Shown here piece by piece: positions 6,001 to 8,209 of a stretch of 64,000 nt of DNA (position 1 is the first letter of the stretch; the number at the start of each line of letters is the position of its first letter). The DNA lies in assembly GCF_056746865.1 (NCBI RefSeq), contig NZ_CM163382.1; one strand, given 5' to 3'. The position numbers were made by a program.

Positions 6001-8209
6001 TCAAGCGGTACAGAATTCATTACTTGATATATACCGGAGTCCAGATTTTCACCATCAACCTTCTTAATAACAATATTGTTATAGTTGGCTTCATGAAAAT
6101 TGACGGTAGCACACTTAACTTCAGCAACTGTAGTGAAGACCAGTTCAATTTGAACATAATCTTTCTCTGTTGATATTAACTCCAGAGCATCTACTTTAAT
6201 GTTGACGCCATCAGACTCTGTATATGTTAAAGATAAATAAGTTGTGGAAATCCTGAATCCAATCGATTGTGATTTTAACACAAGCATAAACTCACTCCTT
6301 CCAGTAGGCACAGGTATAATTTATTCAGCTAATAAATAATTAAACCCACTCTACGGTAAGTTTATTTTAATAATGAATGGTTATCTGCGCGCTACCGCCG
6401 TGCCCGGAAAAATATCTGCGGTTATATCACGGTAACTAATTTATTACCGTTAATCCCGGCAGCGCAGAAGAAACGCTGCCGGGTTATTTATTACTGTGCG
6501 GGTGGAATATCCGTCACTTCAGGATGAACGTCATCCGTGGCGACAGAGGTGGTCGCAGCGGCAGTAGATGGGGTCATGATTTGATCCCAGGCCGCCTGCA
6601 ACGCTTTCATGTTAAATTCCGGCTCGCCTTTCGGCTGCAGCAGTATTAACGCCATATCGTTCGACAACTGCTGACGCAGATCCTGATTTAACATCTCCAC
6701 CGTCAGGCTGTTAAGGAAGTCCTGGCGCAGTTTCTGATATTGCTCCGGCGCGATATCAACGACCTGATTTTGCAACGAACGCATCCGCTGACCCATCAGA
6801 ATATCGGTATCAGCTCGCGCATAGGCGGCAAACAGTTTCTGCAGCTCCAGTTTCTTTTGCGCCACTAACGCATTGAACTCTTCTTCCGGCAGACCTTTAT
6901 CGCGAACCTTCGCCAGTTCACGCGCCACCAGATTAAGGTTGCTGCTCAGCTTGTCGTTTGGTGATTCGATGTTAATGGCACACTGCGCACGCAGATACAG
7001 CACACGACAGTCAAATCCAAGACCGATATCTTTGCTGTTACTGGCGCTTAACGCTTGCTGAACATGCCAGAACAGCGCCTCACGGGCCAGGTCCGCACGC
7101 CAGTAGCGCAGCAGTGCGGCTGATTCACGAATCGGCTGCCACGGCGTATCCCACATGATGGATAACCGATCCTGACGCACCGCGTCAGTCATAATACTCA
7201 CCGCTTCCGCACGCAGCGGAGAAAGCGTCGGCACCGGAGCCGGTGTTTCACGTTTGCCTTTCAGTTCGCCAAACGTTTTATTGATTTGGTCGACGACCGA
7301 GCGCGCATCCACGTTTCCCACCACCAGCAGCGTCATTGCATCCGGGGTGTACCATTTCTGATAGAAATCTTTAATCTTTTCCGCTTCAACGGGTTGTTTC
7401 AGCGGATCGGCAGGATCGTGACCTAACAAGGTTGATCCTTTCAGACGATAGCGCCACCAGCCCTCTTTAGTATCGGCAGGCCAGGTTGCCACCATGTCCT
7501 GACTTTGCAGCGCGTGGTTGATGGTTTCTGGCGTGATAGTCAGTTTGCCAGTGGCATTTGCCAGATAAGAGAGCGCTTCTTTTAGCAAGTCGTTACGGTT
7601 ATTGGGCAAACTCAGATTAAACAGCGTGGTGTCATAAGAGACAATTACCGGCGGCATCGGGCGTTTAGGGTCGATCCCCTGCTGCCACAATGAACGCGCC
7701 TGTGCTGCTTCAAGGCCACCGCTTTGCGTTAACGCAATACGAGGGATGGCGTGGCTGTAACCGCTCTGTTGTGTACTTTCGGCGAGCGAACCGGTATTAA
7801 CCAGCAGGCGAATTTCAACACGATCGCTGGGACGCTGGGGCGTGGTCAGCACTTGCCACTGTAAACCGTTGGAAAGCGTCCCCTGTTGCCATGCTGGATC
7901 AGGCTGGAGCGCATCTGCCTGCACATAGCCAGCAGTGGCCATCATCAGCAAACCGCCCGCTAAAAGTCGAATTTTTGTGCCCTGCATGTGAACCCCTGAT
8001 CAACTATCCTGGTAATAAAAAACTGCCCGTTGTCGGTCAGTCTAAATGACGTTAAAAACACTTCGTGTTAGACCGCAAGAACATGAAAATGTCACGGAAG
8101 AAGTGAAATAAACCTGAACTCACCCAGGTGGTAAGTTCAGGCACAGGGGTCAATTATGCGCAAACACCCGCACTCGGGGAAGGGAGTGCGGGCATAAGTG
8201 GTGAGATTA

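What the first reader, a model, noticed from the sequence alone, without database searches (positions are those of the whole stretch)
6288..6446. Candidate promoter/operator of the insert operon with repeated motifs
The 160-bp AT-rich region upstream of gene E contains an inverted repeat GGTAA-N8-TTACC and two copies of CGCAGATA spaced about 25 bp apart. It lies immediately downstream of the yhjJ stop and hairpin, so read-through from yhjJ could also drive the operon. I could not assign a convincing sigma-70 -35/-10 pair.
Basis: seen in the sequence. Interest (0 to 1): 0.35.

Follow-up and report, generated by a model that had tools for sequence, protein, structure and literature searches.

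The report
RfaH ops leader, not repeat operator
The stretch between yhjJ and the first island gene holds no recognisable promoter, but it does carry a conserved copy of the 12-base "ops" signal that loads the anti-termination factor RfaH onto RNA polymerase, so it is probably a new RfaH-controlled leader for a small array of toxin-immunity-like genes.

Summary
The motifs are real. ACGGTAA-N8-TTACCGT lies at 6429-6450 and CGCAGATA occurs twice, at 6413-6420 and 6382-6389 on the gene strand. No sigma-70 promoter scores 9/12 or better.

The interpretation needs revising:
- **Island origin.** The hairpin after yhjJ and all the motifs belong to the low-GC island. The island begins right after the yhjJ stop codon and is present in about 200 of 5426 E. 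coli genomes.
- **CGCAGATA.** The two copies are not conserved in relatives, so they are probably chance.
- **Conserved parts.** These are two or three hairpins, including the inverted repeat, and one block at 6399-6388 (-) reading GGCGGTAGCGCG.
- **ops match.** In E. fergusonii, other E. coli island types and cryptic Escherichia the same position reads GGCGGTAGCGTG, the exact RfaH ops 12-mer. It sits on the non-template strand, in untranslated RNA, 100 nt before gene E and upstream of 32-42% GC genes.
- **Precedent.** In CFT073 every such leader ops bound RfaH.

Best model: RNA polymerase enters from yhjJ, whose hairpin lacks a U-tract, loads RfaH at ops and reads through the island.

Caveats: the window allele has T11C, gene E has a strong Shine-Dalgarno, and nothing was tested experimentally.

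It is a new member of a known kind.

The parts
6491..6493 (-). yhjJ stop codon (TAA). The island begins at 6490, immediately after it.
   Evidence: Alignment with the empty site L001 diverges right after TAA.
6455..6483 (-). HP1, a GC-rich hairpin (CCCGGCAGCG/CGCTGCCGGG plus a closing U-G/U-A pair). It is island-borne and replaces the native yhjJ terminator. It is a poor terminator in the yhjJ direction and terminator-like in the opposite direction.
   Evidence: Searches show one compensatory G-C to A-U change and U.G/G.U wobbles in relatives. One search gives dG -23.1 kcal/mol, with tail ATTAACGG (d -20.5) against TTATTTAT on the + strand (d +11.8).
6429..6450 (.). It has conserved arms and a variable spacer. 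It is either an RNA hairpin in the leader or a protein-binding palindrome.
   Evidence: Arms are variable at 2 of 16 columns and the loop at 3 of 6. The L010 changes give U.G and C-G pairs in the sense RNA only.
6413..6420 (-). CGCAGATA copy 1, not conserved in relatives.
6408..6415 (-). ATATTTTT block, invariant in 13 of 14 variants including the distant L010. Its role is unknown. It could serve as a weak -10 (TATTTT).
6388..6399 (-). ops-like element GGCGGTAGCGCG on the non-template strand of the island operon. It lies 91 nt after the yhjJ stop and 100 nt before the E start codon. Relatives read the exact ops GGCGGTAGCGTG.
   Evidence: locate it. Searches show its conservation. The ops sequence and base roles come from PMC5995543. 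The CFT073 ops catalogue comes from PMC9765446 Data set S2.
6382..6389 (-). CGCAGATA copy 2. Its first two bases are ops positions 11-12. It is an exact 8-mer only because of the T11C substitution in the window allele.
6341..6364 (-). HP4, a leader hairpin UAAACUUAC-CGUAGA-GUGGGUUUA. The stems are kept and the loop varies. It contains the third 'ACGGTAA' copy, which is not conserved as sequence.
   Evidence: The loop varies at 5 of 6 columns and the stem at 5 of 18.
6285..6300 (-). Shine-Dalgarno AAGGAG (6295-6300) and the ATG of gene E (6285-6287).
   Evidence: The RefSeq CDS boundaries in H1 and EAEC 042 agree.
4059..6287 (-). Island operon of 32-42% GC: E (5862-6287), D (5608-5862), C (5029-5508), B (4705-5025) and A (4059-4643, lipoprotein-like).
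   Evidence: An E homologue at 58% identity lies 16 bp after an Rhs protein. An 'Immunity protein TriTu' gene sits in the L010 array.
6291..6320 (+). Antisense promoter-like site CTCACT-N18-TATAAT overlapping the E ribosome-binding site. This is a side observation.
   Evidence: Read from the sequence; no tool call scored it, and its conservation in E. fergusonii and L010 is read from the alignment. It fell below the scan threshold because the -35 matches only 3/6.
4088..4130 (.). Island edge on the kdgK side, with hairpin GACGGAGAACG/CGTTCTCCGT, shared with the other island type.

Best explanation
The flagged stretch is a transcribed, untranslated leader, not a promoter/operator.

**What it contains.** It belongs to an old low-GC island between yhjJ and kdgK. 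Its key signal is an ops element at 6399-6388 on the non-template strand. The window reads GGCGGTAGCGCG and relatives read GGCGGTAGCGTG.

**Proposed mechanism.**
1. RNA polymerase enters from upstream. The most likely source is read-through from yhjJ across a hairpin that lacks a U-tract. A weak promoter in the last 50 bp of yhjJ is the alternative.
2. Polymerase pauses at ops. The non-template strand forms the small ops hairpin and recruits RfaH.
3. The RfaH-modified polymerase excludes NusG and resists Rho- and H-NS-dependent termination. It therefore transcribes the AT-rich array E-D-C-B-A, which looks like an orphan set of toxin-immunity genes.

**Other motifs.** The CGCAGATA repeat is a by-product; its second copy overlaps the end of ops.

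**Shown versus inferred.** Shown: the sequence match, orientation, position, conservation, the absence of a good promoter or terminator, and the AT-rich target genes. Inferred: RfaH binding, the source of transcription, H-NS silencing, and the immunity function of the genes.
For: 1. **Exact match in relatives.** The 12-mer GGCGGTAGCGTG sits at the homologous position in every island variant fetched independently of that motif: type-2 E. coli (L002, L004, L005), cryptic Escherichia (L009), E. coli/Shigella (L011-13) and E. fergusonii (L016-18). The window allele is 11/12 and the distant L010 is 11/12, reading AGCGGTAGCGTG. The chance of an exact 12-mer in 200 nt is about 1e-5.
2. **Identity with ops.** It equals ops12 as used by Zuber et al. 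All RfaH-contact bases (C3-G8) are intact (PMC5995543).
3. **Correct context.** It lies on the non-template strand, in a non-coding leader 100 nt upstream of E, ahead of genes of 32-42% GC.
4. **Precedent in CFT073.** All 8 ops-like sites in non-template-strand UTRs bound RfaH, including 5 of 5 exact copies, while none of the 34 in coding regions did. Distances from ops to the first gene ranged from 40 to 634 nt (PMC9765446).
6. **Constraint on the module.** Window versus L010 differs at 41 of 159 positions (26%), against 46% at fourfold-degenerate sites of the adjacent yhjJ. ops varies at only 2 of 12 columns, against 28 of 69 for linkers.
7. **Deletions spare ops.** Deletion derivatives of the island keep ops while losing sequence 8 nt downstream of it (L005/L002).
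8. **No promoter or efficient terminator upstream.** No sigma-70 promoter lies in the leader, and no efficient terminator lies between yhjJ and ops.
9. **Related RfaH targets.** RfaH already controls T6SS and vgrG loci: c1882-tssI and tssH in CFT073, and sci1 in EAEC. The E family is linked to an Rhs toxin.
Against: 1. The window allele carries T11C. T11 is invariant in the 8 RfaH-bound CFT073 sites, and T11G is strongly defective in a reporter. T11C itself is untested. From my own knowledge, a pyrimidine at this position still fits the consensus pause G-10/Y-1/G+1.
2. RfaH-controlled genes are described as lacking Shine-Dalgarno sequences (PMC7819879), but E and A have good ones.
3. The operon is short, 2.3 kb here and one gene in type-2 islands, whereas classic targets are long.
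4. Polymerase arriving from a translated 1.5-kb gene may already carry NusG, which is thought to exclude RfaH.
5. In the window alone, a 1-mismatch hit is not rare: about 0.3 expected per 64 kb on both strands (my own calculation; one search gives shuffle figures only for up to 2 mismatches).
6. No transcript, ChIP or rfaH-mutant data for this locus were found.
7. L010 has A at ops position 1.
Confidence: 0.6

Rival explanations
1. The region holds its own sigma-70 promoter, controlled by a repressor or activator that binds the inverted repeat and/or the CGCAGATA repeats.
For: - The inverted-repeat arms are invariant while the spacer varies, which also fits a dimeric DNA-binding protein.
- A weak pair, TTACCG/GTTACC-N15/16-TATTTT (7/12), recurs in all variants, with its -35 inside the right arm of the repeat. 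The TATTTT/ATATTTTT block is conserved.
- AT-rich foreign DNA often carries weak promoters.
Against: - No site scores 9/12 or better, and the best are 7-8/12.
- The start predicted for the 7/12 site lies only 2-3 nt before ops.
- The CGCAGATA copies are not conserved.
- No regulator gene is recognisable in the island.
- The substitutions in L010 keep U.G or C-G pairing in one strand only, which favours an RNA hairpin over a symmetric protein site.
Confidence: 0.12
2. Plain read-through. The island genes are expressed, weakly, as a passive extension of the yhjJ transcript. The ops is an inherited relic that no longer works in the window allele (T11C), and the hairpins only stabilise the yhjJ 3' end.
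For: - HP1 lacks a U-tract in the yhjJ direction.
- T11 is invariant in validated sites and T11G is defective.
- E has its own strong Shine-Dalgarno.
- The operon is short.
- About 170 of about 200 island-bearing E. coli appear to carry the C11 allele, inferred from the identity bands and the representative sequences.
Against: - The RfaH-contact bases and G12 are intact, and C is still a pyrimidine before G.
- ops has been retained across lineages whose synonymous sites are 46% diverged.
- AT-rich genes downstream of an untranslated gap of about 200 nt would be expected to suffer Rho and H-NS polarity without an anti-terminator. This last point is inference from PMC9765446.
Confidence: 0.18
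3. Antisense unit. The conserved module mainly serves a + strand non-coding RNA of about 170 nt. It would start at CTCACT-N18-TATAAT (6291-6320) and end at HP1, which has a proper U-tract only in that direction. The RNA would be antisense to the E leader.
For: - The -10 is a perfect TATAAT (TATATT in L010), paired with CTCACT/TTCACT at 18 nt, in the window, E. fergusonii and L010. This was read from the sequence and alignment.
- HP1 in the + direction has a d-score of +11.8 and 6 T in the first 8 nt.
- The + strand RNA also folds below shuffled controls (z -3.6).
Against: - The -35 matches only 3-4/6, and the site is absent in L011/L012 and in all type-2 islands, which still keep the module.
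- G.U wobbles favour the sense strand: 97.6% of cells are paired in the sense orientation, and my own recount from the pair table gives about 88% in the antisense orientation.
- The sense fold is stronger (-65.6 kcal/mol, z -4.75).
- It does not explain an exact ops on the other strand.
Confidence: 0.05
4. Sigma-54 promoter. GGGCAC-N5-TAGC (6405-6391), with the inverted repeats upstream acting as the enhancer.
For: GG-N10-GC spacing is present. Type-2 islands read TGGCACGGCGGTAGCG.
Against: - Matches of this quality number 111 in the window, against 125 expected by chance.
- L010 has lost the -24 GG.
- The inverted repeat would lie at only about -60.
- The conserved bases are explained exactly by ops.
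Confidence: 0.02

Closest known systems
RfaH ops elements in the leaders of waaQ/rfaQ, rfb/wzx, wza, hlyC, kpsM, tssH, c4518 and c1882 (E. coli K-12 and CFT073)
   Same: - The same 12-mer on the non-template strand of an untranslated leader. Relatives are 12/12 identical to the rfaQ, wzx, wza, tssH and c4518 sites, and 13 nt (GGCGGTAGCGTGC) are shared with the MG1655 waaQ and rfb leaders.
- Upstream of AT-rich, horizontally mobile genes.
- The 100-nt distance from ops to the first gene lies within the known range of 40-634 nt.
   Different: - The window allele has C at position 11.
- The ops follows a translated core gene (yhjJ) by 91 nt, and no dedicated promoter has been identified.
- The target genes have Shine-Dalgarno sequences.
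- The operon is short and encodes small immunity-like proteins rather than envelope or secretion machinery.
- RfaH dependence is untested.
JUMPstart RNA/DNA element (Rfam RF01707), the 39-bp element upstream of polysaccharide operons that ends in ops
   Same: Shares the 3' ops portion.
   Different: The upstream half (GGTAGC...agcc.gg) is absent. RF01707 scores 55-60 bits on the MG1655 waaQ and rfb leaders but gives no hit at E<=10 on 6100-6700.
[quoted passage not shown]
   Same: The ops is intergenic and reached by polymerase that has already transcribed translated upstream genes. It is linked to interbacterial-competition genes. The same strain background, EAEC 042, carries the present island.
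   Different: There the ops lies inside one dedicated operon and was shown to be functional by mutation. Here it lies at the junction of a core gene and an island and is untested. The authors' ops table for strain 042 varied only position 12, so it would not have listed this C11 site.
Orphan immunity-gene arrays next to rhs/T6SS/CDI loci
   Same: A run of small, unrelated, low-GC genes. One family member is found directly after an Rhs toxin, and another array member is the Pfam 'Immunity protein TriTu'.
   Different: No toxin, vgrG or rhs gene lies in or next to this island. Immunity function is inferred for E only, and only by gene neighbourhood in one short contig.
Intrinsic terminator of yhjJ in island-free E. 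coli (CCTGATGGT...ACCATCAGG-TATTTAT)
   Same: A hairpin directly after the yhjJ stop codon.
   Different: The sequence is unrelated. The island hairpin has a stronger stem (-23 against -15 kcal/mol) but only 2 T in the first 8 tail positions in the yhjJ direction, against 5 of 8.

Membership tests
RfaH ops element | Core GGCGGTAG (positions 1-8; C3-G8 needed for RfaH binding) | tested here: met
   The window reads GGCGGTAG at 6399-6392 (-). It is invariant in 13 of 14 variants, and L010 has A at position 1 only. Base roles come from PMC5995543.
RfaH ops element | Pause-inducing TG at positions 11-12 (consensus GGCGGTAGnnTG) | tested here: not met
   The window allele reads CG (T11C). It is met exactly in L002, L004, L005, L009, L011-13 and L016-19. 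T11 is invariant in the 8 RfaH-bound CFT073 sites. The effect of T11C is unknown.
RfaH ops element | On the non-template strand of the regulated operon | tested here: met
   It is on the same strand as E-D-C-B-A.
RfaH ops element | In an untranslated leader, not inside a translated gene | tested here: met
   It lies 91 nt after the yhjJ stop and 100 nt before the E ATG. No sense-strand ORF of 20 aa or more lies between yhjJ and gene E, apart from the unannotated upstream GTG start of E's own frame at 6311, well downstream of ops.
RfaH ops element | Downstream operon is AT-rich and H-NS-bound horizontally acquired DNA | tested here: inconclusive
   GC is 32-42% against 50-59% in the flanks. H-NS occupancy cannot be tested with these tools, and the supplements of an EAEC 042 hns study gave no hit for this locus.
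RfaH ops element | RfaH occupancy and rfaH/ops-dependent expression of downstream genes | not testable with these tools
   No data were found.
RfaH ops element | Target genes lack Shine-Dalgarno elements (as described in PMC7819879) | tested here: not met
   AAGGAG lies 7 nt before the E ATG, and AAGGAA precedes A in type-2 islands.
JUMPstart (Rfam RF01707) | Match to the 38-position covariance model, including the upstream GGTAGC half | tested here: not met
   No hit at E<=10 on 6100-6700. Positive controls scored 55 and 60 bits on the waaQ and rfb leaders.
Sigma-70 promoter | -35/-10 hexamers with 16-18 nt spacing, at least 9/12 | tested here: not met
   None on the gene strand in 6288-6700. 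The best relaxed hits are 7-8/12.
Sigma-54 promoter | GG-N10-GC with TGGCACG-N4-TTGCW, above the chance rate and conserved | tested here: not met
   There are 3 mismatches. Such matches number 111 against 125 expected in the window. The -24 GG is lost in L010.
Intrinsic terminator (HP1, for yhjJ) | GC-rich stem followed by a U-tract on the transcribed strand | tested here: not met
   The stem is present (-23.1 kcal/mol), but the tail ATTAACGG has 2 T in 8, and the site is not reported by the scan. The + strand direction does have the U-tract.
Repressor operator (palindrome) | Conserved symmetric half-sites plus a cognate DNA-binding protein | tested here: inconclusive
   The arms are conserved. 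The one divergent relative changes one arm only, to a G.U-compatible base. No DNA-binding domain is found in the island ORFs. A host-encoded protein cannot be excluded.

The most novel reading that the evidence does not exclude
RfaH is loaded mid-transcript, just after the translated core gene yhjJ, and carries RNA polymerase into a silenced array of orphan Rhs/T6SS-type immunity genes. On this reading the RfaH programme that switches on T6SS weapons in Escherichia also switches on a stock of immunity genes. This junction ops has been kept since before E. coli, E. fergusonii and a more distant enterobacterium diverged.
Probability: 0.35. Interest if true: 0.6.

Novelty: new member of a known kind. 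Interest (0 to 1): 0.5.

Why it matters
**Small regulon.** The experimentally defined RfaH regulon is tiny, with eight loci in CFT073. All of them encode envelope, toxin or secretion systems.

**What this would add.** A conserved ops at the yhjJ/island junction would add a new class of target, small immunity-like genes. It would also be a second example of RfaH being recruited between genes rather than just after a promoter.

**Natural variant.** The window allele offers a T11C ops variant for testing how strictly the pause base is required.

**Directly testable.** EAEC 042 carries exactly this island, and rfaH and ops mutants already exist in that background.

**Practical lesson.** The repeated motifs a reader notices by eye here are mostly incidental. 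The functional signal is a single 12-mer.

Tried and rejected
- **Sigma-54 promoter.** The GG-N10-GC match is real, but such matches occur at the chance rate and the -24 GG is lost in L010.
- **Rfam families.** Only sub-threshold noise appeared (IsrM at 14.8 bits against a gathering score of 376, and others). JUMPstart is absent although the positive controls worked.
- **Mobile-element end or repeated element.** The module is single-copy per genome, always next to yhjJ, and absent from plasmids and phages.
- **Small ORF or type I toxin in the leader.** Only 20-31 aa ORFs without features were found.
- **Function of the island proteins.** Pfam, NCBIfam and PADLOC gave nothing. Gene B is not related to the TriTu protein of L010. 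Gene C has only Escherichia homologues. The Paenibacillus homologue of E is not next to a toxin.
- **RNA covariation.** The hairpins are statistically weak, with one compensatory pair and 101 of 500 shuffles as good. Support rests instead on stems being less variable than loops (13/56 against 11/19 columns, Fisher p=0.009) and on wobble pairs that work only in the sense strand.
- **'HP3'.** The hairpin predicted at 6387-6403 (alignment columns 91-107) is dropped as an independent element, because its conservation is explained by ops.
- **Literature and supplement searches.** Searches for the locus, protein accessions, EC042 locus tags and yhjJ with RfaH found nothing.
- **More distant copies of the module.** A metagenome scan returned only close E. 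coli and E. fergusonii variants. Those loci were also selected with part of ops in the search pattern, so they are not independent evidence.
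Full report
**Layout.** All relevant genes are on the window minus strand. yhjJ (M16 peptidase) occupies 7987-6491. A low-GC segment (32-42% GC against 50-59% in the flanks) follows, with five ORFs:
- E, 6287-5862
- D, 5862-5608
- C, 5508-5029
- B, 5025-4705
- A, 4643-4059 (lipoprotein-like)

A overlaps the 3' end of the convergent kdgK, which ends at 4087. The flagged stretch, 6288-6446, is the gene-strand sequence between the yhjJ stop and the E start.

**Check of the observation.**
- ACGGTAA/TTACCGT lie at 6429-6435 and 6444-6450, with 7-nt arms and an 8-nt spacer.
- CGCAGATA lies at 6413-6420 and 6382-6389, 31 bp start to start.
- A GC-rich hairpin lies at 6455-6483, just after the stop codon.
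- The inverted repeat is unique in 64 kb (0.03 expected).
- The 8-mer occurs 6 times in the window against about 2 expected.
- No sigma-70-like pair of 9/12 or better lies on the gene strand. Relaxed scans give only 7-8/12.

**The 'insert' and its edges.** Of 5426 complete E. coli genomes, about 5220 have an unrelated 95-bp kdgK-yhjJ spacer with its own terminator-like hairpin. About 170 have the window-type island, and about 28 have a second type: A, plus convergent TPR and DUF3142 genes.

Homology to the empty site stops exactly at the yhjJ stop codon. The hairpin, the inverted repeat and both CGCAGATA copies are therefore island DNA. The two island types share 110-156 bp after yhjJ and about 43 bp before kdgK.

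E. fergusonii carries the full set, yhjJ-E-D-C-B-A-TPR-DUF3142-kdgK, collinear with the window at 91%. A Logan contig (L010), whose yhjJ is only 84% identical in DNA, has the same island with extra cargo. The E. coli forms are therefore deletion derivatives of an old island, not a recent insertion. The module is single-copy and absent from plasmids and phages.

**What the island genes are.** Pfam, NCBIfam and PADLOC recognise none of the five proteins. A 58%-identical homologue of E lies 16 bp after a protein with RHS-repeat and RHS-core domains and a C-terminal extension, which is the classic toxin-immunity arrangement. The L010 array also contains a Pfam 'Immunity protein TriTu' gene. I therefore read the operon as an orphan immunity-type array. 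This is inference from gene neighbourhood.

**What is conserved in the leader.** I aligned 14 variants and a 159-column core of 10 distinct variants.
- **CGCAGATA.** The copies fall in the most variable segments. Copy 2 is an exact 8-mer only in the window allele. The third ACGGTAA copy is not conserved as sequence either.
- **Blocks.** An ATATTTTT block at 6408-6415 and one block at 6388-6399 are also conserved.

Stem columns vary less than loop columns (13/56 against 11/19, Fisher p=0.009). Most stem changes are to G.U, or from G.U to Watson-Crick, in the sense RNA. There is one true compensatory pair. The sense RNA folds better than the antisense RNA (-65.6 kcal/mol, z -4.75, against -56.1, z -3.56). 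Formal covariation is weak, so the hairpins are supported but not proven.

Against L010 the module differs at 26% of positions, while fourfold-degenerate sites of the adjoining yhjJ differ at 46%. The module is therefore under constraint.

**The key block is an ops element.** On the gene strand, 6399-6388 reads GGCGGTAGCGCG. The homologous position reads GGCGGTAGCGTG in type-2 E. coli, cryptic-clade Escherichia, L011-13, E. fergusonii and L019, and AGCGGTAGCGTG in L010.

GGCGGTAGCGTG is the ops12 sequence used by Zuber et al. In that study:
- C3-G8 are needed for RfaH binding.
- T11/G12 set the pause.
- T11G is strongly defective (PMC5995543).

The consensus is quoted as GGCGGTAGnnTG (PMC9562583). 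The MG1655 waaQ and rfb leaders share 13 nt (GGCGGTAGCGTGC) with the relatives' sequence.

The element is in the right orientation, on the non-template strand of E-A. It lies in untranslated RNA, 91 nt after the yhjJ stop and 100 nt before the E ATG, and ahead of AT-rich genes.

In CFT073, Hustmyer et al. catalogued 42 ops-like sites. All 8 in non-template-strand UTRs bound RfaH, including 5 of 5 exact copies, and none of the 34 coding-region sites did. Distances from ops to the first gene were 40-634 nt, and the rfaQ ops lies only 27 nt from its transcription start (PMC9765446).

The chance of an exact 12-mer in a 200-nt stretch is about 1e-5. In the window alone, the 1-mismatch hit would not be remarkable. 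The argument rests on the relatives.

The element is not a full JUMPstart. Rfam RF01707 finds the waaQ and rfb leaders at 55-60 bits but not this region.

**Where transcription comes from.**
- No promoter is recognisable between yhjJ and ops.
- HP1 has a strong stem (-23.1 kcal/mol), but its tail in the yhjJ direction is ATTAACGG.
- An approximate d'Aubenton-Carafa score, using a formula recalled from memory, is -20.5 for HP1. It is +3.4 for the dctA terminator and +11.8 for HP1 read on the + strand.
- A weak ATGACG-N17-GATATT (8/12) sits in the last 50 bp of yhjJ.
- Loading of RfaH between genes, after translated upstream genes, has a precedent in the hcp-clpV ops1 of the EAEC T6SS cluster.

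**Mechanism proposed.** Polymerase from upstream crosses HP1 and HP2 and pauses at ops. There it acquires RfaH, and it then resists Rho- and H-NS-dependent termination through E-A.

Shown:
- the sequence identity, orientation and position of the ops element
- its conservation across island variants
- the lack of a good promoter or terminator upstream of it
- the AT-richness of the target genes

Inferred:
- RfaH binding
- the source of the transcript
- H-NS silencing
- the immunity role of the genes

**Reasons for caution.**
- The window allele has C at ops position 11. T is invariant in all eight validated CFT073 sites, and T11C is untested. From my own knowledge, a pyrimidine before G still fits the consensus pause.
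- E and A have good Shine-Dalgarno sequences, whereas RfaH targets are described as lacking them.
- The operon is short.
- NusG on polymerase arriving from yhjJ might exclude RfaH.
- No expression data for the locus were found.

**Rivals.**
- **Dedicated promoter with the inverted repeat as operator.** This cannot be excluded but lacks a promoter, a regulator and conserved direct repeats.
- **Passive read-through with a decayed ops.** This is the main alternative for the window allele specifically.
- **Antisense RNA.** It would run from CTCACT-N18-TATAAT (6291-6320, + strand) to HP1. It is possible, but it is absent from several variants that keep the module.
- **Sigma-54.** The match is at chance level.

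**Comparison and novelty.** The element works like, and in relatives is sequence-identical to, known ops leaders. In the window it fails one defining feature (T11) and one associated feature (no Shine-Dalgarno). I found no mention of this locus in RfaH literature. The EAEC 042 ops table varied only position 12 and would have missed it, although 042 carries exactly this island. I file it as a new, predicted member of a known kind, of moderate interest and directly testable.

Noticed in passing
window 11746-15219 (-), stop near 14022-14024: bcsC (cellulose synthase outer-membrane subunit) carries an in-frame stop codon (…VAMAR*DYPAAE…). It splits into ORFs of 398 and 744 aa and looks like a pseudogene. 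EAEC 042, which has the same island, is annotated with an intact bcsC.
   Followed up: partly
window 4059-4130: ORF A overlaps the convergent kdgK by 29 bp. Its last ~25 codons come from the kdgK-side island edge and from kdgK antisense. This is a fusion created when the TPR and DUF3142 genes, present in E. fergusonii and type-2 E. coli, were lost. The last kdgK codon also differs from the empty-site allele (…MPE* against …MPA*). An RfaH-modified polymerase would be expected to run antisense into kdgK.
   Followed up: partly
window 6291-6320 (+) and 6455-6498 (+): A promoter-like CTCACT-N18-TATAAT lies on the opposite strand and overlaps the E ribosome-binding site. HP1 has a U-tract (TTATTTAT) only in that direction. 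Together they could give an antisense RNA of about 170 nt covering the leader and ops, or HP1 could shield yhjJ from antisense transcription out of the AT-rich island.
   Followed up: partly
kdgK-yhjJ junction; loci L001-L006, L010, L011, L016-L018: The kdgK-yhjJ spacer is a polymorphic spot with at least five states: an empty 95-bp spacer; E-D-C-B-A; A+TPR+DUF3142; the full E. fergusonii set; and E-led arrays with other cargo (TriTu immunity gene, DUF6708, DDE_Tnp_1_assoc fragments). One strain (LP-26-E1-261) has IS1 inside ORF C.
   Followed up: partly
L007 (JAIJJM010000440.1): A 2.7-kb contig labelled 'MAG: Collinsella sp.' is 99-100% identical to the E. coli island and leader. It is almost certainly a misbinned Escherichia contig.
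   Followed up: no
PLSDB record NZ_CP141089.1 (hit H71): The only 'plasmid' match to the leader is a 4.9-Mb record, evidently an E. coli chromosome filed in the plasmid collection.
   Followed up: no
window 6408-6415 (-): The ATATTTTT block, 9 nt upstream of ops, is invariant even in the distant L010, although the sequence on both sides of it varies. No role could be assigned. It may be a weak -10 or a U-rich RNA element.
   Followed up: partly
window 14467-14478 (-): A second ops-like 12-mer, GGCGATAGCGTG, has one mismatch (G5A). It lies inside bcsC coding sequence. G5A abolishes RfaH binding in vitro, so it is presumably a chance match.
   Followed up: no
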